From Clostridia bacterium (lineage in GTDB: Bacteria; Bacillota; Clostridia; TANB77; CAG-508), in contig JAFQQR010000044.1 in assembly GCA_017410505.1 (NCBI GenBank), positions 1,620-65,619 of the forward strand: a stretch of DNA of 64,000 bases, given 5' to 3'. Shown in pieces: positions 1-47,239 of this stretch; positions within the stretch are counted from its first letter, which is position 1; each line of letters starts with the position of its first letter. Made by a program: the position numbers and the translations under genes. The notes below the pieces were generated by a model that saw only the letters and a program-made list of their open reading frames with translations, was not told where the DNA came from and did not search any database.

Positions 1-3000
1 TCTTGCAACTGGTCTCTAAATCCATATGCTCCACCAGATTGATAAAACCCTGTTTTTCCTTGTAATCTACTTTGTATTATTTGATATACACACCATCCAT
101 TTAGGATTATATTCACTGATTCTAATGGTGTATATACTTGTAATCTTCCCAATAATTCTTTCCAATAATTTTTTACTTTTTCTAATTCTTGTCTACAATT
201 TTGTACTTTGCTATATTTATAGGCCATATTTTTGCTATCAATAATTGACTCTTCTGCTCCGAGTGTGAATATAATTTCTTTTTCTGATAAACTTTCAAGT
301 TCTACTTCTATTTCATATGCTATACATGGTTTCTTTCCTAAACTATTTTCATTATTTAAACTCGGTTTTCTTATTGCATCTGGATTCGCTAAATTTCCAC
401 TTCCTAAAAAGAATCTTTTATCTCCTGTATAGCTTTTTATTTTTTCACTATTTGATACATAAATAATGTCATTTCTAAATTCAGTATTATATAAATTTTG
501 AGCACATATTATATTATTATTTTTATCATACTTTAAGTCTATATAGCCATTTGCTCTTAATTCATCTTCTCCTAAAACTGGTTTTGCATAATATAGTATT
601 TTTAATCTTTTTCTCTTTAAGCTCATATTTTTTAGTTTTAAAATTTGAACTTTAACACTATCTTCTTTTGGTACAAACATTTCTAATTCTTGTTCTATTT
701 CATCACTTTTGTGAATATATTTAGCATATCCAAATCCATAAATAACATTATAATTTTTATCATCTGGCATAGGATTTTGTCCAAGTGACCATGCTTTTTT
801 AGTTTCTAAATCTTTTAAATATATTATTTCTGATGGAATATCAAAATTAGGCTGATTTTCCCACGATGTTACTCTATTTAGCCTACTATTTTTGTACCAG
901 GTGTATCCTCCCATATTTTCTGTAACTAAAGTTCCAAATTTTTCATTTGCCATTATATGTGACCATACTGTTGGTAGTTTATTTTCTTTATTTACTTTTA
1001 TTAGATATTCTTTTCCATCTTCTGAAAAGGCTCCATATTCATTATAATATTTTAGTTTTTCTGAATTTTGTAAAATATCTATATTTTCCGTATTTTCTGT
1101 TTCTATTAATATACTTTCTGCTTCATTTCCTATACTTTTGTATTTCTCAAGATATTCTTCTTCTAAATCTTTAAGTGAATTTTCTAATCCACCTTTACTT
1201 CCATCAATAACAATTCGTGCTAAAAATTTTAGTAAATCTAAATCTTCTCTGCTTATTTCATTTTTAGAAAGTTCAAAAATTCCACCTCTTATATTTTTTA
1301 AATATGCTAATTGACTGTTTAAAATTATTCCTTCTATTTCTTCTCTTACATAATTTTCATAACTATGTTTTTCTTCATCTATAATTACAAGTTCTGTTTC
1401 AAAATTTTTAGTTCTTATAAATTCATAGGCTTTTAAAACTTCTTTTACTACATAAGCATCATTTATATCTTTTATTTTTACTAAAATTATTGGTATATCT
1501 CCTGATATTCCATATTTCCATAATTCACTTTGTTCATATTTTCGTTTTGGCAATTTTTCTAAATTAATTTTTTTAGCTGGATTATTAAATATAATATAAG
1601 ATAACATTTTTTGATAATTTCTTATTTGCGTTCCTTTTATTCTTAAATATCTGCTCTGTGCTTCATTTTTTGCTTTCGATAATTCAAATGCTTTTTTTAC
1701 ATTTTCTTCTATTTTATATTTTTTTATATTTTCAATTGTTTTTTCTTTATCTTCTCCTACTGATATAAGTAGATTTATTGTTGTTTTTTGTTCTGGTTTT
1801 ATTTTCATTGTTCTTTTTAAGCTAACTACTGGTTCAGTGACAAGTCCTATTTTTTTAGAAAATGGGTTTGAATTTTTAACCATTTGAGGTATTCCTATGT
1901 TTCCTCTACCCATAAACTTTTCTTCATCTATTTCGTATTCTAAATCCCCAATTATTTCACTATGTGTACATAAATTTACACACATATATAATTCTTGTTC
2001 ATTTTCATCTCTCTTTTTTCTTTTTACAACAATGCTATTTGTTTCGTGGTCAAATTCAAATATTAAAAATAGATTGTTAAATGCAGGATGAGCATAATCT
2101 TGCTCTTTGTTTGAAAGTACTGGTTCAAAATGTGAAGTTATTTCTAAGATTTCTTCATCATTTCCTAAATTTTCTAATGTTACTTGCCTTATTTCAACAG
2201 GCTCATCTGGGGCCACAATAGTTTCTATTTTTGTTTTTATATTATCATTTAGCATTTCTTGTTCTATCTTGTCTGGCATAAAACTGATTTGATATTTGTT
2301 ATTTTTTCTATAGTTAGAACTCCATATTTTTTTTGATTTTATATTTTTAATATCAAAAAATATTCCTTGAGGGTAATCATCTGTGCTTTTAAATCTATTT
2401 ATAAATTTATTTTTATATACACTTATTCCTTCTCCCTTTTGATTCATTGCTATAAAATAATTTTCATTTGCTATTACATTTCCTCTAATTAGTCTTTCGT
2501 CTATTTTTTTATACGTATCTTGAATATAATCTTCATAATCTATATATTTTAATTTTTCTACTTTTTCTTTATTTTCTTTTGTTATTAGAGCTGTTTCAGG
2601 CATTCTTTCTTGTAACAATATATTTACTGCATTTATTTCTGGATTTTTTATAAATCTCTTTTGCAGAATATTATCATTAAATAAATTATTTATCGAAAGT
2701 AATATTAAACTTTGGTGATGTGCCATATAAGTTTTAACAATACTTGCTTGTGTTCCTTTTTCTAATCTTTCTGGTGTAAAGTCTATTGATTCATAAAATC
2801 CATATTTTCCATACATTCCATAATTTTCTAATATTTTTAAATTTTGATATACCTCTTTTGGATAATCTGTTATTGCTAAAACACTTCCATAAGTTGATAC
2901 TACCATTTCATCTGCTAATCCTCTTTTTAGTCCAAGCCAAGGTATTCCAAATGCTTTATATTGATAATTAGAATGTAAGTCTTTTAAATTAAATGCCGCT

Positions 3001-10865: not shown

Positions 10866-10881
10866 TTCTTTCTCCTAAAAA

Positions 10882-10972
10882 AGAAGGATTATGGGGATGT
10901 GGCTTAAAATCCTTCTAAAATTCACTTATTTATATTTTAGAGGGATTTAAAGCTCGTCCCCATAATCCCTCT
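10882..10972. repeat. Two inverted copies (10882-10916 and 10939-10972) of a hairpin element of about 35 nt (family RE-1, AGAGGGATT..GGGGA(C/T)G..AATCCCTCT)
   Basis: agaaggattatggggatgtggcttaaaatccttct and agagggatttaaagctcgtccccataatccctct are reverse complements of each other apart from a few changes. Related copies lie at 25564-25596 and 40001-40036. Confidence 0.8.
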
Positions 10973-10975
10973 TTT

Positions 10976-11596
10976 TTATTTTCCCAAAATAGCTAGACCT
11001 TTTCTTATTAAGTCTTCTGTAGATAATCCTTCTTTATCTAATTTTTCAAATGATTTTTCAATTTCTTTCTTGTTATATCCTAATACTTGAAGTGCTGCAA
11101 TTGCTTCATCAATTTTTTGACTATTTTCTATTGCAACTTCTACATTTGTTTTTATTCCTTTTGTTGCTGCTGTTAATTCTTGTATTTGTTGTTCTTTCTT
11201 TATTTTATCTTTTAGTTCTAATATTATTCTTTGTGCTGACTTTGCACCTATTCCAGGAATTTGTGTTAATGCTTTTATATCTTCTGAAATTATTGAAATA
11301 GCAAACTCTGTAGGTTCGCATACTGCAAGCATAGTAAGCGCTGTTTTTGCTCCTACTCCGCTTACTGATATTAATAATTCAAACATTTTTAATTCTTCTA
11401 ATGTATTAAATCCAAATATACTAATATCATCTTCTCTAACTTTGTAATATGTATGTACTTTAACTGTTTCTCCTATATTTCCTAATTTTTCTATTCCTGA
11501 GTCTGACATGAATACTTTATATCCTAATCCTCCAACATCTATTACAATATATCCTGTCATTTTCATTTCTAATATTCCTTTTATATATGCTAACAT
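10976..11596 (-). CDS. ruvA: Holliday junction branch migration complex subunit RuvA
   Basis: 206 aa. MLAYIKGIL..., HhH motifs LISVSGVGAKTALTML and LTQIPGIGAKSAQRIILEL. ruvB is not adjacent. Confidence 0.9.
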   Translation of the reverse strand: MLAYIKGILEMKMTGYIVIDVGGLGYKVFMSDSGIEKLGNIGETVKVHTYYKVREDDISIFGFNTLEELKMFELLISVSGVGAKTALTMLAVCEPTEFAISIISEDIKALTQIPGIGAKSAQRIILELKDKIKKEQQIQELTAATKGIKTNVEVAIENSQKIDEAIAALQVLGYNKKEIEKSFEKLDKEGLSTEDLIRKGLAILGK

Positions 11597-16177: not shown

Positions 16178-16293
16178 AATATCACCTCATTTAGGTATTA
16201 ATAACAAATAAAATATAATTATATTTTATTGTTTTGTATTCTATCATATTGTATTTTCTTTGTAAAGAGCTTATTTTTAAAATCAGCTGTACT

Positions 16294-16563
16294 GTTGAAA
16301 CTATTCAGACCTAAATATGAAGAGTTGATGGAAAAGGTTGCTATAGCCATCAATTTATGCAATGACGAATGTGACGGGAATAGGCTTAGAAATTCTTAAT
16401 TAATTTTATGGAAAGAGTTCACGCAGCGCAGCGGAGTGGAAGGGTGCCATAAAATTAATTTAGAATTTCTTAGTCTATGTATGGAGCCGAGGAATGAAAT
16501 AAATTGATGGCTATAGCAACCTTTTCCATCAACCCTTCATATTTAGGTCTGAATAGTTTCAAC
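16294..16563. repeat. Long nested palindrome E1 with 65-bp outer arms (64/65 complementary), an inner stem of about 27 bp and a GC-rich apical loop
   Basis: Left arm 16294-16358 (gttgaaactattcagacctaaatatgaagagttgatggaaaaggttgctatagccatcaatttat) and right arm 16499-16563. Inner stem cttagaaattcttaattaattttatgg / ccataaaattaatttagaatttcttag. Apex aaagagttcacgcagcgcagcggagtggaagggtg. Confidence 0.9.
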
Positions 16564-16631
16564 ATCTTATATTTGCATTTTTTATATTTTATTGTATAAT
16601 ATAACCAAATACAAATGAAAGGTTATATTAT

Positions 16632-40043: not shown

Positions 40044-42104
40044 TTATTTCTTAGCTTTTGCTTTCTTTTTAGTAGTTCTCTTTTCTGTTTCTTTTTTTAC
40101 TTCTTCCGCTTCTTCAGGATTCCATTTTTCTCCTGGTTTTGGTTTATTCCAAGAAATATAATCGCAAGAATTTGGATTATTTTCACATATATAATAATTT
40201 CTTCTTCTCTTTGTTTTTCTTACTTGTACTGTTGCTCCACATTTTGGGCATGGAACATCTATTGTTTCAATTATCGGTTTGGCGTTTTTACATTCTGGAT
40301 ATCCTGGGCATGCTAAAAATTTTCCATATCTCCCATATTTATAAACCATCATTCTTCCGCATTTTTCACATTGTACGTCAGATACTTCATCAACTAATTC
40401 AACATGTTCTAGTTCTTTTTCAACTTTTTCAAGTTCTTTTGCAAATGGTCCATAGAATTCTCTAATCATCTTTTTCCATTCTTCTTTTCCTTCTGCGATT
40501 TCATCAAATTCGTTTTCTATTTTTGCTGTAAATTCTATGTTTATTACATCTGTAAAGTTTTCTGTAAGTAGTTTATTTACTATTTTTCCTAGCTCTGTTG
40601 GTATTAATCTTTTTTGTTCTTTTTCTATGTATCTTCTCTCTAAAATCGTGGTAATTGTTGGTGAATATGTACTTGGTCTTCCTATTCCTTTTTCTTCTAG
40701 AGCTTTTACTAAACTTGCTTCTGTATATCTTGCTGGTGGTTCTGTAAAGCTTTGTTTTGGATCTATTTTTATTAGTTTTACTTCTTGATTTTCTTGTAGT
40801 TCTGGTAACATTTTTTCTTCTTGTTCTTCTTTTTCGTCTGTTCCTTCTACATATAAAATCATAAATCCTTTGAATTTTAGGTTTTGTCCATTTGCTTTAA
40901 AGTCATAATCATTTGCTTTGATATTAACTGCCATTGTGTCATAAATTGCTGGTTTCATTTGGCTCGCCATAAATCTGTTATATATCAATTTATATAATCT
41001 ATATTGGTCTCTTGTTAATTCATTTTTTACATCATCTGGTTCTATGTCTGAATATGTTGGTCTTATACCTTCGTGTGCGTCTTGTGCGTCTTTGTTTGTT
41101 TTGTAATATCTATTTTCGTAATATTCATCTCCATATGTTGAAACTATGTGATTTTTAGCTGCAGCTCTAGCTTCTTCTGATATTCTTGTTGAGTCTGTTC
41201 TCATATACGTTATTAAACCAACTGTTCCTTTGTCTGCTATTTTTACACCTTCATATAAACTTTGTGCGACAGACATTGTTTTCTTTAATGTGAATCCTAA
41301 TTTTCTTGACGCTTCTTGTTGCATTGTACTTGTTGTAAAAGGTGGTTCTGGGTTTCTTTTCTTTTCACCTTTTTTTATTTCTGATACTATATATTTTGCT
41401 TTGTCAATATTTTTTAATATTTCATCTACTTGCTCTTTTGAACCTATTTCTTGTTTTTTACCGTCTTTTCCATAAAATTTAGCTTCAAATTCTTTTTTAG
41501 ATTTTTCATCTTTTAAATTAGCATATATATTCCAATATTCTTGTGGAATAAAGCTTTCGATTTCATTTTCTCTATCTACTATTAATTTAACTGCTACTGA
41601 TTGAACTCTACCTGCTGATAATCCTCTTTTTACTTTTTTCCATAATAATGGACTTATTTTGTACCCAACTATTCTATCTAGAACTCTTCTAGCTTGCTGC
41701 GCATCTACAGTATCTTTATCAATATTTCTTGGCTCTTTTATTGCCTTTTGGACTGCTGATTTTGTTATTTCATTAAAAGTGACTCTTGTAATTTTATCTT
41801 TATCTTCTTCTAATATTTTTGATAGGTGCCATGCTATTGCTTCACCCTCACGGTCAGGGTCAGTTGCTAAATATATTTTTTTTGCTTTTTTAGCATCTAA
41901 TTTTAGTGATTTTATTAGATTTCCCTTTCCTCTAATATTTATATATTCAGGTTCAAAATCATGTTCAATGTCTACTCCTAATTTTGATTTTGGTAAATCT
42001 CTTATATGTCCCATTGAGGCTACAACTTTTGTGCTTCCTCCTAAAAATTTTTTTATTGTATTTGCTTTTGCTGGTGATTCTACAATTATTAATTTATCAG
42101 CCAT
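40044..42104 (-). CDS. topA: DNA topoisomerase I (type IA) with C-terminal zinc ribbons and a Lys-rich tail
   Basis: 686 aa. Toprim LIIVESPAKA, active-site region GLITYMRTDSTRIS, and CEKCGRMM / CPKCG zinc ribbons. Confidence 0.97.
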   Translation of the reverse strand: MADKLIIVESPAKANTIKKFLGGSTKVVASMGHIRDLPKSKLGVDIEHDFEPEYINIRGKGNLIKSLKLDAKKAKKIYLATDPDREGEAIAWHLSKILEEDKDKITRVTFNEITKSAVQKAIKEPRNIDKDTVDAQQARRVLDRIVGYKISPLLWKKVKRGLSAGRVQSVAVKLIVDRENEIESFIPQEYWNIYANLKDEKSKKEFEAKFYGKDGKKQEIGSKEQVDEILKNIDKAKYIVSEIKKGEKKRNPEPPFTTSTMQQEASRKLGFTLKKTMSVAQSLYEGVKIADKGTVGLITYMRTDSTRISEEARAAAKNHIVSTYGDEYYENRYYKTNKDAQDAHEGIRPTYSDIEPDDVKNELTRDQYRLYKLIYNRFMASQMKPAIYDTMAVNIKANDYDFKANGQNLKFKGFMILYVEGTDEKEEQEEKMLPELQENQEVKLIKIDPKQSFTEPPARYTEASLVKALEEKGIGRPSTYSPTITTILERRYIEKEQKRLIPTELGKIVNKLLTENFTDVINIEFTAKIENEFDEIAEGKEEWKKMIREFYGPFAKELEKVEKELEHVELVDEVSDVQCEKCGRMMVYKYGRYGKFLACPGYPECKNAKPIIETIDVPCPKCGATVQVRKTKRRRNYYICENNPNSCDYISWNKPKPGEKWNPEEAEEVKKETEKRTTKKKAKAKK

Positions 42105-42190
42105 AAATCCTCCTTAGATTTTTTTCATACTTAAGTATTCTAGAACAAATCTAGATATTTTTCAAGGTTTTTTACAATATTTTATAACAT

Positions 42191-42219
42191 AAAAAAGAGA
42201 ATTGCAATTCTCTTTTTTT
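42191..42219. terminator. Palindromic bidirectional terminator
   Basis: aaaaaagagaattgcaattctcttttttt. Confidence 0.7.
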
Positions 42220-42457
42220 AAGTTTCAGTTTTTTGCAAAAGCTGCATTATGTCTCAGCATAAATGCTTATATATTAAAATGCAGTGACGCGCAGTTTGAA
42301 AGGACACAAACTCATATAGATCATCTAGATTAACTATTCAAACTCTGAAATACAAATATCTTACTCATATGATTAGTCCGACCAGTAAGGAACGGATTTT
42401 TAATATATATGTATTTATGCTTAGACATAATGCAGCTTTTGCAAAAAACTGAAACTT
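42220..42457. repeat. Long nested palindrome E2 with outer arms of about 60 bp around a conserved core of about 117 nt that is shared with E3
   Basis: Arms aagtttcagttttttgcaaaagctgcattatgtctcagcataaatgcttatatattaaaa and its near-perfect reverse complement at 42397-42457. The core begins tgcagtgacgcgcagtttgaaaggacac and ends gattagtccgaccagtaaggaacggat. Confidence 0.9.
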
Positions 42458-42469
42458 AAATCTTTTTTA

Positions 42470-42787
42470 TTAAAATTTATTTCTAAATAAATCTGAAATA
42501 ACTTCCTCAGAATTTATTAGAGTTACTTGATTATCTTTAAATATGTTTAAAATCCTATTTATCTCAAATTCTTCATTTGTTATATATCTTATATTCTTTG
42601 TTTCTACTTTTAAATTATTTGGTATATATTCTGTTTTTATTATACTAATTCCATATTTTGCTTTATTATTTGAAATTATTTCATCTTCATTTATTTGCTT
42701 ATAATACTCCAATTTTATCGGATAATCTATTCCCGCTTCTTCTAATTTTTCTTTTTCTATAAAAGCCCCTCCAAAAAAAGTCTTCAA
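42470..42787 (-). CDS. Hypothetical protein (105 aa)
   Basis: ORF-track ORF with a TTG start behind AAAGGGGGA. No family recognised. Confidence 0.5.
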   Translation of the reverse strand: MKTFFGGAFIEKEKLEEAGIDYPIKLEYYKQINEDEIISNNKAKYGISIIKTEYIPNNLKVETKNIRYITNEEFEINRILNIFKDNQVTLINSEEVISDLFRNKF

Positions 42788-42943
42788 AAAAAATCCCCCT
42801 TTTCTTTAGTATTTTTTATCAAATTTTTTCTATTTTACTATTAATATCAAGGGTTTGCAAGAATTTTTCATCGCAATTTTTGACATATTAAATTACTATA
42901 TTATTATATTTTATTTAATTAGACAGCTTTCATTTTTATTCGA

Positions 42944-43843
42944 CTAATTGTTGTAATATTTTTTTATATATTTTGCAATTTCATTTGCTAATATTTCTTC
43001 TTTTCCAGAATAACTATGATTAGCTTCATCTATATATCCTATATCCAAATCTTCATTTTTTATTTTACTTTGTAAAAACTCACACAATTCATCTGCCTTT
43101 TGTACTATTAATTCTTTATTATTTCCCCATCTCATAAATAAAGGAACTTTTATATTATTCAATTCTTCAAAATCATATAAATTATCTGAAAATCTAGCAA
43201 AATTAATATCATTATTTTCTATTGTATATCTTAAAAATGTTTTTACACTTATAGGATGTATAAAGCTTTTTTCAGGCATTAATTGATTTCCCATACCTTC
43301 TTTTTTTATATTTTTTGCATATGTTACTATAGCTGGAAAATCATCTTGTAAGTAAATTGTTAATGCTGTTGGTATATCTACTAAAGATAATAAAATTATT
43401 CCTTTTATTTTACTAACTATATCTGTATTTTCTTTTAAAAATTTATTATATGCATATACTATTTTCGTTGAACCCAAACTATGTCCCATCAAGTATATTT
43501 CATCATAGCCATTTTTTATTGAATAATTTATTGCACCTAATATATCATTATAACATTCTGATATTTCTTCATATGAAGTTCCGGCTAATTCTTCTTTTTC
43601 TTTGTTTTCTTTTTTTATATAATTTATTAAATCATGACCTCTATTATTAAACACCAAAATGTCCATATTTAATTCATTTATTTTTTCAGCAATCTTTTCA
43701 TCTCTCTTCTTTATGCAATTTGTAGCCATCCCATGTACTGATATTAATATTTTTCGTGTCTCATTCTTAGATTTATATATAAATCCTTTTAAATCCACTC
43801 CATCTGTAGCATTAAAAAATATTGTTTGTATATTCATATACAT
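42944..43843 (-). CDS. Alpha/beta-fold hydrolase
   Basis: 299 aa. Nucleophile elbow GHSLGS. The likely start is the ATG at 43837 (RBS AAGGAG 8 nt upstream). Confidence 0.8.
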   Translation of the reverse strand: MYMNIQTIFFNATDGVDLKGFIYKSKNETRKILISVHGMATNCIKKRDEKIAEKINELNMDILVFNNRGHDLINYIKKENKEKEELAGTSYEEISECYNDILGAINYSIKNGYDEIYLMGHSLGSTKIVYAYNKFLKENTDIVSKIKGIILLSLVDIPTALTIYLQDDFPAIVTYAKNIKKEGMGNQLMPEKSFIHPISVKTFLRYTIENNDINFARFSDNLYDFEELNNIKVPLFMRWGNNKELIVQKADELCEFLQSKIKNEDLDIGYIDEANHSYSGKEEILANEIAKYIKKYYNN

Positions 43844-43907
43844 TTCTCCTTTTAATTTATTTTATTGAACAATTATAACATATGTTTTTATAATCTTCTA
43901 TATTTTT

Positions 43908-43989
43908 GGCAAAGTTTTGTCCTTCCAAACTGCGCGTCACTGCATTTTAATATATATGTATTTATCCTGAACAGGACAGAACTTTTGCC
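43908..43989. repeat. Truncated, inverted mini-copy of the E2/E3 element inside its own short hairpin
   Basis: 43921-43961 (ccttccaaactgcgcgtcactgcattttaatatatatgtat) is the reverse complement of E3 44834-44873. The flanking arms are ggcaaagttttgtcc / ggacagaacttttgcc. Confidence 0.8.
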
Positions 43990-44067
43990 GAAAAGCATGG
44001 TTTAAATTTTGAATAATTATTAAATTATTGTCTATAATGTATAAAATATTTATAAAAAGGTGATTAT

Positions 44068-44775
44068 ATGGATTTATTAAAAGTCGTATGGCTTTCATTT
44101 GGCTCTTTATTTGCTTTATTTATACTAACAAAATTAATGGGAAATAAAGAGATGTCACAACTTAGTATGTTTGACTACATTATTGGAATTACAATTGGAT
44201 CTATAGCTGCCGAAATGGCTACAGCACTAGAAAGTGATTTTATGCAACCATTACTTGCAATGGTTATTTATGCTTTAACATCAATACTCATATCATTTGT
44301 ATCCTACAAATCTTTAAAAATAAATAGATTTCTTTCTGGACCTTCGCTAATTTTACTAGATAATGGCGAAATTTACAGAAAAAATTTAAAAAAGGCAAAA
44401 TTAGATCTTAGTGAATTTTTAGTTCAATGCAGAACTAACGGATATTTTAATCTAAGCGATATTCAAACCGCCATTCTAGAACCAAATGGTAAGATCAGCT
44501 TTCTACCCAAAGCCGAAAAAAGACCAGCTACTCCTTCTGATCTAAACATTTCACCTCCTGTTGATATGATAGTTGTCAATATCATTTTAGACGGTCAACT
44601 TCTAAAAGAAAATTTATATCATACAGGCAATGATGAACTATGGCTTCAAAAGCAACTTACATCTCAAGGAATTGAAAATATTGATGATATTTATTTAGCA
44701 ACATGTGATTGTAATAATAATCTATCTGTTTATATGAAAAAAGATTTAGAAAACAAGCATGATTTTTTTGATTAA
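44068..44775 (+). CDS. DUF421 (YetF/YrbG-like) membrane protein
   Basis: 235 aa. LTKLMGNKEMSQLSMFDYIIGITIGSIAA is the family-typical N-terminus. Confidence 0.85.
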   Translation: MDLLKVVWLSFGSLFALFILTKLMGNKEMSQLSMFDYIIGITIGSIAAEMATALESDFMQPLLAMVIYALTSILISFVSYKSLKINRFLSGPSLILLDNGEIYRKNLKKAKLDLSEFLVQCRTNGYFNLSDIQTAILEPNGKISFLPKAEKRPATPSDLNISPPVDMIVVNIILDGQLLKENLYHTGNDELWLQKQLTSQGIENIDDIYLATCDCNNNLSVYMKKDLENKHDFFD

Positions 44776-44795
44776 TCTCACATTTCAATATTTAA

Positions 44796-45021
44796 GTTTG
44801 TTTGAAAAAGTCGTGTTATAGTTCAGGGCTCAATACATATATATTAAAATGCAGTGACGCGCAGTTTGGAAGGACACAAAAACATACAGACCATCCAGAC
44901 TAACTCTTCAAACTCTGAAATATCCAAAAGTCACTCATATGATTAGTCCGACCAGTAAGGAATGGATTTTTAATATATATGTATTGAGCCCTGAACTATA
45001 ACACGACTTTTTCAAACAAAC
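44796..45021. repeat. Long nested palindrome E3 with perfect 54-bp outer arms unrelated to those of E2, and the same core and inner inverted repeat (atacatatatattaaaa)
   Basis: Arms gtttgtttgaaaaagtcgtgttatagttcagggctcaatacatatatattaaaa and its perfect reverse complement at 44967-45021. The core is about 85-90% identical to E2. Confidence 0.9.
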
Positions 45022-45048
45022 GACAACAAATTTTTATGCAGAATACCT

Positions 45049-45669
45049 CTATCTTATAAAATTAGTAGCTACTATTTTCTCATTTTCAGGCTCCTTTATC
45101 CCTGAATTTTTACCACACTCTATACACTTTAGCAACCACGCCATATTATTCCCCAAAGTCCTCATTGTTTGCATACCTTCTTCATCTTTTAAAACATCAT
45201 CTGGCTTACTTCCATGCACCATATTCCAATATTGAGATGTCACTATTGGCATATTATTCATAGCAAAATACTTATTTATTTGGTCAAATGTTGATGTTGC
45301 TCCACCTCTTCTACAACTCACAACACCTGCCGCAACTTTATTTTTAAATAAGTTTCTTCTTCCATAGAAAACTCTGTCCATAAATGAAGTAATTGCTCCA
45401 CTTCCAGATGCAAAATGTACAGGAGTTCCAAAAATAAATCCATCTGCATTTGTAACTTTTTTTAAAAACTCATTTACTTTATCATCTATAAAACATCTTC
45501 CTGTGTTTATACAAGATCCACAACCTCTACATCCTGATATTGGTTTGTTTCCTATCCAAAATTCTTCAGTTTCTATACCGTTTTTTTCTAATGTTCTCTT
45601 TACTTCTGTTAAAGCTGTGTACGTACATCCATTTTGATGTGGACTTCCATTTACTAATATAACTTTCAT
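45049..45669 (-). CDS. Flavodoxin-fold NAD(P)H-dependent FMN reductase / iron-sulfur flavoprotein-like protein
   Basis: 206 aa. MKVILVNGSPHQNGCTYTAL and the Cys cluster CRGCGSCINTGRC. Confidence 0.8.
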   Translation of the reverse strand: MKVILVNGSPHQNGCTYTALTEVKRTLEKNGIETEEFWIGNKPISGCRGCGSCINTGRCFIDDKVNEFLKKVTNADGFIFGTPVHFASGSGAITSFMDRVFYGRRNLFKNKVAAGVVSCRRGGATSTFDQINKYFAMNNMPIVTSQYWNMVHGSKPDDVLKDEEGMQTMRTLGNNMAWLLKCIECGKNSGIKEPENEKIVATNFIR

Positions 45670-45699
45670 AAATCTTCTCCTTTTGAAAATTTGGGATGG

Positions 45700-45764
45700 G
45701 GAATTGGGGACGTGTTAAAAATCCTTATTTAAAAAATGAGGATTTTTAACACGTCCCCAATTCC
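45700..45764. repeat. Perfect 26-bp inverted repeat (RE-2 family, two GGGGACG motifs) abutting the stop codon of gene 45766-46431
   Basis: ggaattggggacgtgttaaaaatcct-tatttaaaaaatg-aggatttttaacacgtccccaattcc. Confidence 0.9.
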
Positions 45765-45765
45765 T

Positions 45766-46431
45766 CTAAAATTTTTCTACAATCTCATTCTGATTTTTAT
45801 ATATACTATTTGCTTCAACTACTTTTCTTACAGAAGACAATGGATAAATATTACTATTTTTACCTATCACAGTACCCGGATTTAAAATAGAACCACACCC
45901 AACTTCTACTTCATCCCCTATCATTGCACCAAACTTCTTCAAACCAGTTTCTATTTTTTCTGTCCCATTTTTAACAACAACTAATTTTTTATCTGATTTC
46001 ACATTTGATGTTATAGAGCCAGCTCCCATATGAGATTTATACCCTAGTATTGAATCTCCAACATAATTATAATGAGGAACTTGAACTTTATTAAATAATA
46101 TAACATTTTTAAGTTCAGTTGAATTTCCAACAACTGCACCTTCACCTACTATCGCTTTTCCTCTTATAAATGCACAATGTCTTATTTCTGCATTTTTTCC
46201 TATTATTGCAGGTCCTTTTATATATGCAGTTGGTGCTACTGTTGCTGATTTCGCTATCCACACATCTTCCCCTATTTTTTCATATTCATTTTCATCTAAA
46301 GTATTACCTAGTTCAATTATAAAATCATTAATTTTAGGTAGCACTTCCCAAGGATATGTTACTCCCTCAAATATTTTTGCTGCTATTGTTTCTTCTAAAT
46401 TATATAAATTTTTTATTTTTACTTCTTCCAT
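45766..46431 (-). CDS. Hexapeptide-repeat (left-handed beta-helix) transferase-like protein
   Basis: 221 aa. Repeated [LIV]G-x4 hexads (IIGKNAEIRHCAFIRGKAIVGEGAVVGNSTELKNVILFN...). Confidence 0.7.
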   Translation of the reverse strand: MEEVKIKNLYNLEETIAAKIFEGVTYPWEVLPKINDFIIELGNTLDENEYEKIGEDVWIAKSATVAPTAYIKGPAIIGKNAEIRHCAFIRGKAIVGEGAVVGNSTELKNVILFNKVQVPHYNYVGDSILGYKSHMGAGSITSNVKSDKKLVVVKNGTEKIETGLKKFGAMIGDEVEVGCGSILNPGTVIGKNSNIYPLSSVRKVVEANSIYKNQNEIVEKF

Positions 46432-46966: not shown

Positions 46967-46971
46967 GTAAT

Positions 46972-47191
46972 GCAATCGCTTAAAATTAATGATTACTGAA
47001 AAGTCAGATCCGAGGGGTATATATATTATTTTTGAAGTGAGCTTGTGGGGGGACCGGCAACTTACAGTATGTTATAGAATGAAACATAGTGGAATTCTAT
47101 TACATACTGTTAGGCAGTTGGGACGAACGAAAAATAATATATATACCCCTCAGATCTGACTTTTCAGTAATCATTAATTTTAAGCGATTGC
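46972..47191. repeat. Long nested palindrome E4 with outer arms of about 61 bp (one mismatch) and an inner 17-bp stem
   Basis: Arm gcaatcgcttaaaattaatgattactgaaaagtcagatccgaggggtatatatattatttt and its reverse complement at 47131-47191. Inner stem acagtatgttatagaat / attctattacatactgt. Confidence 0.9.
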
Positions 47192-47239
47192 CTTATTTTA
47201 TTTGATTTTCCTTTTAAATTTTGTTATACTATTTTCATT

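What the first reader, a model, noticed from the sequence alone, without database searches (positions are those of the whole stretch)
42220..45021. Palindrome family E2/E3: a conserved structured core of about 120 nt flanked by long, perfect but unrelated inverted arms
E2 (42220-42457) and E3 (44796-45021) share two things. One is a core of about 117 nt that is roughly 85-90% identical (tgcagtgacgcgcagtttgRaaggacac ... actcatatgattagtccgaccagtaaggaaYggat). The other is a short inner inverted repeat (atacatatatattaaaa / ttttaatatatatgtat).

Their outer arms (about 40-45 bp beyond the inner repeat) have unrelated sequences, yet each pair is perfectly or almost perfectly self-complementary.

A MITE would share its terminal repeats between copies. 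A conserved RNA stem would not stay perfect over 45 bp by ordinary covariation. This architecture suggests one of three things: an element that inserts into the apex of pre-existing long hairpins, an insertion mechanism that generates an inverted duplication of the flank (foldback or hairpin-primed synthesis), or a structured RNA or DNA hairpin of unknown function.

A G-to-A difference between copies (tccg..cgga in E2, tccg..tgga in E3) is compatible with a G-U pair if the element is transcribed from the plus strand.
Basis: seen in the sequence. Interest (0 to 1): 0.62.

Follow-up and report, generated by a model that had tools for sequence, protein, structure and literature searches.

The report
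Mobile palindromic repeat with structured centre
E2 and E3 are two copies of an uncatalogued family of small non-coding mobile hairpin repeats of uncultured gut Clostridia: a conserved folded centre sits between long inverted arms that change quickly but always together, which gives a clear case for studying how such repeats move and stay perfect.

Summary
E2 (42217-42460) and E3 (44796-45021) share an 88% identical centre between near-perfect 63- and 54-nt arms. A third, internally deleted copy lies at 43909-43990 on the minus strand. The arms are diverged homologues, not unrelated.

About 60 further copies were found in gut Clostridia MAGs and metagenomes. None match Rfam, phage or plasmid records. 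All share a closing module, GCA-GUGAC-GCGCAG-UUUGG...CCAG-UAA-GGAAC-GGA. It has covarying helices, invariant tandem G.A pairs and many G.U wobbles on one strand only. The arms are strict DNA palindromes: 16 mismatches in 1,522 bp, with no G.T excess.

Close relatives have empty sites. E2 inserted as a whole, arms included, with a 6-8 bp direct repeat. E3 stands where relatives have a plain terminator. Between related copies, 39 of 42 arm substitutions are mirrored on the partner arm. At one locus the whole unit is flipped in 2 of 9 samples, so arm-to-arm recombination occurs.

Best reading: a new REPIN/MITE-like foldback repeat family. Apex insertion and flank duplication are not supported for E2.

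The parts
42217..42279 (+). E2 left arm (63 nt)
   Evidence: Inverted repeat I1, 95% complementary (3 mismatches). Absent from the empty sites in L084/L085.
42280..42397 (+). E2 centre (118 nt). The closing module halves are 42281-42305 and 42376-42396, with a variable distal part between them.
   Evidence: Covariance model R1 scores 134.9 bits on + and 14.2 bits on -. Structure counts.
42398..42460 (+). E2 right arm (63 nt)
42211..42218 (.). Left copy of the direct repeat TCTTTTTT flanking E2 (6-8 bp; the exact length is ambiguous because the arm starts with TTT).
   Evidence: There is a single copy in the empty sites of L084/L085. The X4 contig joins 42210 to 42461 with 8 letters shared by both sides.
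42461..42468 (.). Right copy of the direct repeat TCTTTTTT flanking E2
42191..42218 (.). Native terminator hairpin AAAAAAGAGAATTG/CAATTCTCTTTTTT. E2 inserted into its T-tract.
   Evidence: Inverted repeat I24. Conserved in L084/L085.
43909..43990 (-). Deletion derivative ('half copy'): full left arm, first 27 nt of the centre, then the outer right arm. The junction is at the microhomology AGGACA.
   Evidence: I3, I4; R1 26.2 bits, E 0.0017, 90 model positions skipped. Absent in L086, L089, L092 and L093.
44796..44849 (+). E3 left arm (54 nt)
   Evidence: Inverted repeat I2, 100% complementary.
44850..44967 (+). E3 centre (118 nt). The closing module halves are 44851-44875 and 44946-44966.
   Evidence: R1 scores 133.3 bits on + and 14.1 bits on -. 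Structure counts.
44968..45021 (+). E3 right arm (54 nt)
   Evidence: The whole 44777-45049 spacer is replaced by a 37-61 nt terminator hairpin in X18, L082 and L083.
42345..42373 (+). Promoter-like motif CTGAAA-17-TATGAT inside the E2 centre (weak, 9 of 12)
   Evidence: The TATGAT lies at a fixed distance from the centre's end in subfamily A only. The scan as a whole is not above shuffles.
44915..44943 (+). Promoter-like motif CTGAAA-17-TATGAT inside the E3 centre (weak, 9 of 12)

Best explanation
E2, E3 and the truncated copy at 43909-43990 belong to an uncatalogued family of non-coding palindromic (foldback) mobile repeats. The repeats are 150-330 bp long and occur in uncultured, roughly 27% GC gut Clostridia.

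Each element has two layers.
- The centre folds on one strand only. Its closing module is 5' GCA-GUGAC-GCGCAG-UUUGG-GA-(4 covarying bp) ... (4 bp)-GA-CCAG-UAA-GGAAC-GGA 3'. It contains invariant tandem G.A pairs and an invariant U.G pair, and it closes a roughly 70-nt distal part that differs between subfamilies.
- The arms are strict DNA-level inverted repeats, 18-106 nt long.

Shown:
- The element is dispersed and polymorphic.
- It enters gene-end spacers as a whole unit, arms included. E2 has a 6-8 bp direct repeat.
- Arms of related copies are homologous, and their differences are mirrored on the partner arm.
- The unit can be flipped between its arms.

Inferred:
- The arms stay perfect because one arm is repeatedly copied from the other. 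This could be intramolecular recombination or gene conversion between the arms (the process that also flips the centre), or template switching at the hairpin. Base-pair-by-base-pair selection is the less likely cause.
- The conserved mismatched module is the handle recognised, in folded single-stranded form, by a trans-acting mobilising protein. A REP/IS200-type tyrosine (HUH) transposase is the leading candidate.
- Where a copy has displaced a terminator, as E3 has, the long hairpin probably takes over that role.
For: Family and structure:
- 18 true loci in genome MAGs and about 50 in metagenomes; 51 distinct cores.
- No Rfam match at E <= 1. No phage or plasmid match. No ORF of 60 aa or more overlaps E2 or E3.
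- Structure counts: 74% of cells paired against 34-44% in slid registers; 0 of 500 shuffles reach any of the five measures; P2b pairs show many double changes.
- G.U 33 versus A.C 8 at the variable pairs, plus U.G in all 51 copies at pair 30/124.
- Model R1 scores 135 bits on one strand and 14 bits on the other.

Arms:
- 1,522 bp with 16 mismatches and no G.T bias.
- 39 of 42 substitutions between related copies are mirrored.

Mobility:
- E2's empty site in L084/L085 holds a single TCTTTTT(G/T), matching an X4 contig that joins 42210 to 42461.
- E3's empty sites are in L082, L083, L086 and L092 and in a 2,686-nt X18 contig.
- The same arm occurs in at least 3 gene contexts.
- Many copies lie at contig ends. 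Core depth is 10-30 times the flanks.
- The element is never found between divergent genes: 0 of 37.

Flip: at the fabZ-accC locus, 7 samples have one orientation and 2 the other, with identical flanks.

Against:
- A direct repeat is clear only for E2 and lies in a T-tract. HUH 'peel and paste' transposition makes no target duplication, so the two inferences sit uneasily together.
- The element's ends are not conserved between copies, unlike classical MITEs or REPINs.
- Tandem G.A and G.U pairs are typical RNA motifs, and a chicken-gut metatranscriptome holds the core ends, so an RNA role is not excluded.
- The flip was seen in short-read assemblies at a locus with 36-nt outer arms. If the assembler's k was below 36, the orientation could be arbitrary.
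- E2 carries 3 uncorrected arm mismatches, so correction is not continuous.
Confidence: 0.68

Rival explanations
1. A dispersed family of small structured RNA genes. The centre is a functional RNA with a k-turn or loop-E-like protein-binding module. The long perfect arms are a double-stranded processing stalk (an RNase III substrate) and/or a bidirectional terminator. On this view the copies spread as a by-product.
For: - The fold is strand-specific, with G.U 33 versus A.C 8 and invariant tandem G.A pairs.
- An A-tract before the centre and a U-tract after it are conserved.
- The core ends are present in a metatranscriptome.
- The mini-cores in the L063 array keep only the closing module.
Against: - There is no orientation preference relative to neighbouring genes (15 against 13) and the unit flips inside an essential operon, so a cis or co-transcribed role is unlikely.
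- No promoter is conserved across subfamilies.
- The arms carry no G.U pairs, as DNA palindromes would and unlike RNA stems.
- The whole unit comes and goes between close relatives.
- G.T and sheared G.A pairs are also stable in DNA hairpins (own knowledge).
Confidence: 0.15
2. The core inserts into the apex of pre-existing long hairpins, or insertion generates an inverted duplication of the flank (foldback or hairpin-primed synthesis). Either way the outer arms would be local DNA.
For: - In six loci (L019, L030, L031, L033, L043, L056) the element lies inside a second, outer REP-like stem.
- E3 stands where relatives have a terminator whose stem (AAAAAGTCAT) resembles E3's AAAAAGTCGT.
- The right outer arm of the 46968 palindrome resembles native DNA in L082.
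Against: - E2's empty site has neither arm, and its flanks are intact with a direct, not inverted, repeat.
- The fabZ-accC composite is wholly absent in L050.
- Both resemblances are non-significant against shuffles, at p about 0.1.
- E2, E3 and the half-copy arms are homologous to one another, so they came with the element.
Confidence: 0.08
3. An invertible promoter cassette (inverton). The arms are recombination sites, and flipping the centre redirects an internal promoter to switch neighbouring genes.
For: - Both orientations exist at one locus.
- Subfamily A centres carry nTGAAA-17..19-TATGAT. In L002 it is TTGACA-17-TATGAT and in L033 TTGATA-18-TATGAT.
Against: - The flipping locus is the housekeeping fabZ-accC spacer.
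- The promoter-like motif is absent from the other subfamilies and the scan is not above shuffles.
- No invertase gene is seen next to any copy.
- Flipping was not tested for E2 or E3, because contigs break in the arms.
Confidence: 0.05

Closest known systems
REPINs (REP doublets forming hairpins) with RAYT / TIRYT tyrosine transposases (Bertels & Rainey 2011, PMC3116915, PMC3337134; Di Nocera et al. 2013, PMC3733652)
   Same: - Short, non-coding, extragenic, high-copy units that fold into a long hairpin.
- A sequence-variable but always self-complementary part with paired (compensatory) changes.
- Located downstream of genes, between unidirectional or convergent ORFs.
- Occasional tandem clusters (L063).
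- Some copies here sit in the middle of a REP-like doublet (L033 and others), and subfamilies B-D begin with GTAG.
   Different: - The topology is inverted. In REPINs the ends (REPs) are conserved and the middle varies. Here the middle is conserved and the arms vary.
- E2 and E3 have no GTAG tag or REP at their ends.
- The conserved module (about 45 nt, with tandem G.A pairs and a 6-nt bulge) closes a further 70-nt distal domain.
- E2 has a direct repeat.
- No RAYT link could be tested.
Bacterial MITEs with long inverted ends and functional centres (Correia/NEMIS of Neisseria, ERIC/IRU of enterobacteria, bcr1 of the Bacillus cereus group); from my own knowledge
   Same: - About 100-250 bp, non-coding and dispersed in intergenic DNA.
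- They fold into hairpins in transcripts.
- They can carry promoters or act as terminators.
- They show presence/absence between strains and a target duplication.
   Different: - Those families keep the same terminal repeats in all copies, tied to a parent IS. Here the terminal sequences differ between copies while staying perfectly paired within each copy.
- There is no sequence similarity to those families.
- The conserved part here is an internal, strand-specific fold.
Large inverted repeats kept identical by flip-flop recombination and copy correction (plastid IR, yeast 2-micron plasmid, Y-chromosome palindromes), and quasipalindrome correction by template switching in E. coli; from my own knowledge
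   Same: - The two arms evolve in concert.
- The segment between them is found in both orientations.
- Mismatches are rare relative to the divergence between copies.
   Different: - The scale is far smaller (tens of bp against kb).
- Here the palindrome is itself a mobile, multi-copy element.
Invertons (invertible promoters of gut bacteria); from my own knowledge
   Same: Inverted repeats flank a short segment that occurs in both orientations and may hold a promoter.
   Different: - The arms are much longer and are not conserved recombinase sites.
- There is no adjacent invertase.
- The element is dispersed and mobile.
- The flipping locus is inside a housekeeping operon.

Membership tests
Any Rfam RNA family | Match to a curated covariance model | tested here: not met
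   cmscan over 41500-45800 at E <= 1 gave no hit on E2, E3 or the half copy. The only hits were chance miRNA-like matches on the 45700 hairpin.
Classical MITE | Short, non-coding, multi-copy, with presence/absence polymorphism | tested here: met
   No ORF of 60 aa or more. About 60 copies found. Empty sites.
Classical MITE | Terminal inverted repeats with the same end sequence in all copies, matching a parent IS | tested here: not met
   The outermost arm sequences differ between copies. Only the inner part is shared.
Classical MITE | Target-site duplication of fixed length | tested here: inconclusive
   E2 has TCTTTT(TT), 6-8 bp, confirmed by three empty sites. No clear duplication was seen at E3 or most other copies.
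REPIN / REP-RAYT | Two REPs (short imperfect palindromes, usually GTAG-tagged) in inverted orientation form the conserved ends | tested here: not met
   The ends of E2 and E3 carry no GTAG or REP. Subfamilies B-D start with GTAGAGTA but end in GGCY. REP-like outer stems flank only some copies.
REPIN / REP-RAYT | Hairpin-forming variable part with compensatory changes | tested here: met
   39 of 42 arm substitutions are mirrored. 1% mismatches in 1,522 bp.
REPIN / REP-RAYT | Extragenic, downstream of genes, between unidirectional or convergent ORFs | tested here: met
   -E- 15, +E+ 13, +E- 9, -E+ 0, using ORFs of 120 aa or more.
REPIN / REP-RAYT | Co-occurrence with a (usually single-copy) RAYT/TIRYT gene flanked by the repeat | not testable with these tools
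Only unverified earlier notes mention such a gene in this lineage.
Inverton | Both orientations present in natural populations | tested here: inconclusive
   Met at the fabZ-accC locus of another species, 7 against 2 samples. Not testable for E2 or E3 because contigs break in the arms.
Inverton | Functional promoter inside, and a site-specific invertase | tested here: inconclusive
   The promoter-like motif is in subfamily A only and the scan is not above shuffles. No recombinase is seen among the neighbours.
IS200/IS605-type single-strand transposon derivative | Strand-specific imperfect hairpins as recognition elements, and no target duplication | tested here: inconclusive
   A strand-specific imperfect hairpin module is present. 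However, E2 shows a direct repeat, and no TnpA could be sought.

The most novel reading that the evidence does not exclude
The conserved mismatched closing module (GCA-RUGAC ... GGAAY-GRA) is also found at the base of the unrelated 16293-16564 palindrome, and in variant form at 46968-47195. It could be the handle of a shape-directed mobility system. In this reading a trans-acting protein recognises the folded single strand and moves whatever complete hairpin is attached. The arms would be re-templated from one another at each cycle. The transposon would then be defined by its structure rather than by its end sequences, and it would continually replace gene-end terminators in these streamlined gut Clostridia.
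Probability: 0.18. Interest if true: 0.8.

Novelty: new variant of a known kind. Interest (0 to 1): 0.5.

Why it matters
Palindromic repeats (REP, REPIN, MITE) are known mostly from Proteobacteria. How they move and stay symmetrical is still argued.

This family inverts the usual layout, with a conserved strand-specific centre and free but perfectly paired arms. It also offers natural data on three processes:
- insertion of whole units;
- concerted change of the arms;
- flipping.

The same gene-end spacer holds a different hairpin element in almost every close relative. Such elements may therefore be a main source and sink of terminators in these small, AT-rich gut genomes. That matters for annotating MAGs: contigs break at these elements and their orientation is ambiguous.

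The closing module gives a concrete oligonucleotide substrate for finding the enzyme that moves the elements.

Tried and rejected
- Rfam at E <= 1 gave nothing on the elements.
- The viral contig scan with the two-anchor pattern gave 0 hits. Annotated phages and plasmids gave no match.
So there is no own-genome census, no transposase co-occurrence test and no replication-strand test.
- By eye, E3's outer arm seemed to derive from the native terminator, and the right arm of the 46968 palindrome from native flank. Both failed the shuffle test at p about 0.1, so I treat them as unproven.
- The idea that all long-arm palindromes in the window are one RNA family was rejected. Model R1 finds only E2, E3 and the half copy. 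The 16293 element shares only the short closing motif.
- Target duplications at other copies: no consistent pattern.
- L035, which has a copy next to a topA-like gene, is not alignable with the window's topA upstream region.
- TATGAT as one strand of a helix was rejected. It is invariant while its would-be partner varies.
- The RNAfold minimum-energy structure of E3 does not reproduce the covariation-supported module, because G.A pairs are not modelled. I used it only for z-scores (+ strand -4.7, - strand -2.7).
- The metatranscriptome contigs carry no strand information, and their ends are graph breaks, so they say nothing about transcript starts.
Full report
**1. Observation**

The coordinates and anatomy hold.
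- E2 has arms at 42217-42279 and 42398-42460 (63 nt, 3 mismatches).
- E3 has arms at 44796-44849 and 44968-45021 (54 nt, no mismatch).
- Each pair of arms encloses 118 nt. The shared 154 nt are 88% identical.
- The core words are far beyond chance: 3 and 2 matches against 0.00 expected.
- No ORF of 60 aa or more overlaps either element.

The window is about 27% GC. The neighbouring genes are topA, a DUF6514 gene, an alpha/beta hydrolase, a YetF-like gene and an FMN reductase.

**2. A widespread family**

The invariant 19-mer TGCAGTGACGCGCAGTTTG retrieved 24 genome loci. Eighteen are from low-GC uncultured gut Clostridia MAGs, including Clostridium sp. CAG:492. One MAG has 12 hits, most of them at contig ends.

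A two-anchor pattern retrieved 54 metagenome loci and none from viral contigs. Together these give 51 distinct cores in at least six subfamilies that differ in the middle roughly 70 nt.

Rfam, annotated phages and annotated plasmids have nothing similar.

Laid contigs of related strains break exactly 29 nt inside each arm, as a k=31 graph does at a true palindrome. Summed depth over the core is 10-30 times that of the flanks.

**3. The centre is a strand-specific fold**

All copies share this closing architecture:
- arm;
- 3 nt (GCA/GGA), of which the middle pair covaries (CG 19, UG 10);
- GUGAC/GGAAC (G-C, U-A, G.A, A.G, C-G);
- an internal loop of GCGCAG(U) opposite UAA;
- UUGG/CCAG, with an invariant U.G pair;
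- GA/GA;
- a 4-bp helix that covaries freely (for example pair 38/116: AU 22, UG 12, CG 6, UA 3, GC 2).

On alignment A2, 74% of cells pair, against 34-44% in slid registers. No shuffle out of 500 reaches any of the five measures.

In L048 the GA/GA step becomes Watson-Crick. At the variable pairs, G.U outnumbers A.C by 33 to 8.

A covariance model scores 133-135 bits on the + strand and 14 bits on the minus strand. In the window it finds only E2, E3 and the half copy.

So one strand, as RNA or as single-stranded DNA, carries a conserved structure.

**4. The arms are DNA palindromes that change in lockstep**

Across 51 distinct copies the arms total 1,522 bp with 16 mismatches. Four are G.T and four are A.C, so there is no wobble tolerance. 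Arm lengths run from 18 to 106 nt.

The arms are not unrelated.
- E2 and E3 arms align at about 84% identity with gaps. Their outer parts alone beat all but 10 of 2000 shuffles.
- Copies within one MAG share 40-50 nt of arm.
- One subfamily has a fixed 26-nt arm with asymmetric ends (GTAGAGTA...GGCY) in at least three gene contexts.

In eight pairs of related copies, 39 of 42 arm substitutions, and the indels too, are mirrored on the partner arm. The arms are only about 1.5-2 times more diverged than the centres.

Ordinary compensatory evolution would leave many intermediates, and these are not seen.

**5. Empty sites**

Relatives were found through YetF homologues.

*E2.* L084 and L085 read ...AAAAAAGAGAATTCCTATTCTCTTTTTG|TTAAAATTTGC... 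with neither arm. The window has the whole 242-bp palindrome there, flanked by TCTTTT(TT) on both sides. A low-depth contig in run X4 joins 42210 to 42461 with the same 8 shared letters. So E2 entered as a complete unit, arms included. It landed in the T-tract of a terminator, and its arms are not local DNA.

*E3.* L082, L083, L086 and L092, and a 2,686-nt X18 contig at depth 17, go from stop codon to stop codon in 37-70 nt. The spacer holds only a plain terminator hairpin. The window's flanks are not alignable with these, so E3's boundaries and any duplication are unresolved.

*The fabZ-accC locus of another species.* The whole composite (outer REP-like stems, spacers and element; 299 nt) corresponds to a 26-nt spacer in L050.

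The element is never found between divergent genes: 0 of 37, with -E- 15, +E+ 13 and +E- 9.

**6. Flipping**

At the fabZ-accC locus, nine independent assemblies share identical flanks and outer arms. Seven have the centre antisense to the operon and two have it sense. The asymmetric spacers are inverted together with it. The genes are fabF, accB, fabZ and accC, so this is not an obvious phase switch.

It does show that the arms recombine with each other. That process also converts one arm to the other, and it explains both the perfect arms and the mirrored changes.

Caveat: these are short-read assemblies with 36-nt outer arms.

**7. The half copy**

It keeps the full left arm and the first 27 nt of the centre, then continues with the outer right arm. 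The junction is the 6-nt AGGACA, which is present both in the centre (GGAAGGACA) and in the expected right arm (CAGGACAG). It is a microhomology deletion of about 135 nt, not an independent mini-element.

**8. What it is and how it works**

The evidence fits a mobile foldback repeat of the REPIN/MITE kind with an unusual layout. The precedent for hairpin repeats whose variable part keeps pairing through paired changes is explicit in the REPIN literature (PMC3116915, PMC3337134). So is the gene-end location (PMC3733652).

I infer that the conserved mismatched module is the recognition handle for a trans-acting protein acting on the folded single strand. Only unverified earlier notes place such a gene in this lineage.

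E2's direct repeat does not fit HUH-type transposition well, so the enzyme class is open.

An RNA role remains possible. The motifs are RNA-like, and a metatranscriptome holds the core ends. Against it stand the absence of orientation bias, the flipping inside an operon and the absence of a promoter shared by all subfamilies.

Subfamily A, which includes E2 and E3, does carry nTGAAA-17..19-TATGAT at a fixed position. This is weak evidence for an outward promoter.

**9.

- Apex insertion is contradicted for E2 and unsupported elsewhere.
- Inverted duplication of the flank is contradicted for E2.
- A structured hairpin is supported.

The nested outer stems seen in six loci are REP-like hairpins of a second family, which also occurs empty in the window at 45700-45764.

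**10. Novelty**

I found no catalogue entry or paper describing this family. Earlier notes of this scan describe similar repeats in other gut Clostridia genomes. They prompted the flip test but are not independent support.

I rate it a new variant of a known kind, of moderate interest.

Noticed in passing
window 16293-16564: A second long-arm palindrome (66-nt arms at 98% complementarity, 140 nt between them). Its centre is unrelated to E2/E3 but closes with the same module next to the arms (GCA-ATGAC ... GGAAT-GAA). A member of this family, in reverse orientation, occupies the E3 site in the 94% relatives L089-L091 (23-nt exact match, E 5e-10).
   Followed up: partly
window 46968-47195: A third long-arm palindrome (66-nt arms at 97% complementarity, 96 nt between them) with a variant closing motif (GUGAG ... 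CGAAC). It is absent from relative L082, where the spacer is 115 nt against 319 nt here. The resemblance of its right outer arm to native L082 DNA is not significant (p about 0.1).
   Followed up: partly
window 45700-45764 and 10876-10978: These look like REP-doublet hairpins. Each arm (GGAATT-GGGGACGTGTTAA-AAATCC) is itself a small hairpin. The same type of stem (GGGGMC...AAAATCCC) forms the outer stems around family members in L019, L030, L033, L043 and L056. It is absent or different at the same spacer in L082, L083 and L086.
   Followed up: partly
window 44776-45049 compared with L082, L083, L084, L085, L086, L089-L093 and the X18 contig: The spacer after the YetF-like gene holds a different hairpin element in almost every relative with YetF 78-94% identical. 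Contents seen: E3; a 16293-family element; a 14-bp-stem hairpin that may be its collapsed remnant (L092); a plain AAAAAGTCAT terminator; a GGGTCAAAAGGGACGCCC inverted doublet (L085); and two other hairpins. This points to rapid turnover of palindromic elements at gene ends.
   Followed up: partly
L063 3370-4370 (metagenome contig Ga0209800_10000160): A tandem array of at least six family cores with a period of about 186 nt. Only the first has a left arm. The last two units are 45-nt mini-cores that keep just the closing module.
   Followed up: partly
L060 compared with L038 and L029: L060 has the left flank of one locus and the right flank of another around the same 26-nt-armed copy. This is either recombination between dispersed copies or an assembly chimera at the repeat.
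   Followed up: no
window 42470-44068 compared with L084, L085, L089 and L093: Gene content between the DUF6514 gene and the YetF-like gene varies among close relatives: an alpha/beta hydrolase here; nothing in L084; a Sua5/YrdC-like gene in L085 and L093; a 265-aa gene with faint MarR/HTH hits plus the hydrolase in L089. It is a small accessory block bounded by palindromic elements.
   Followed up: no
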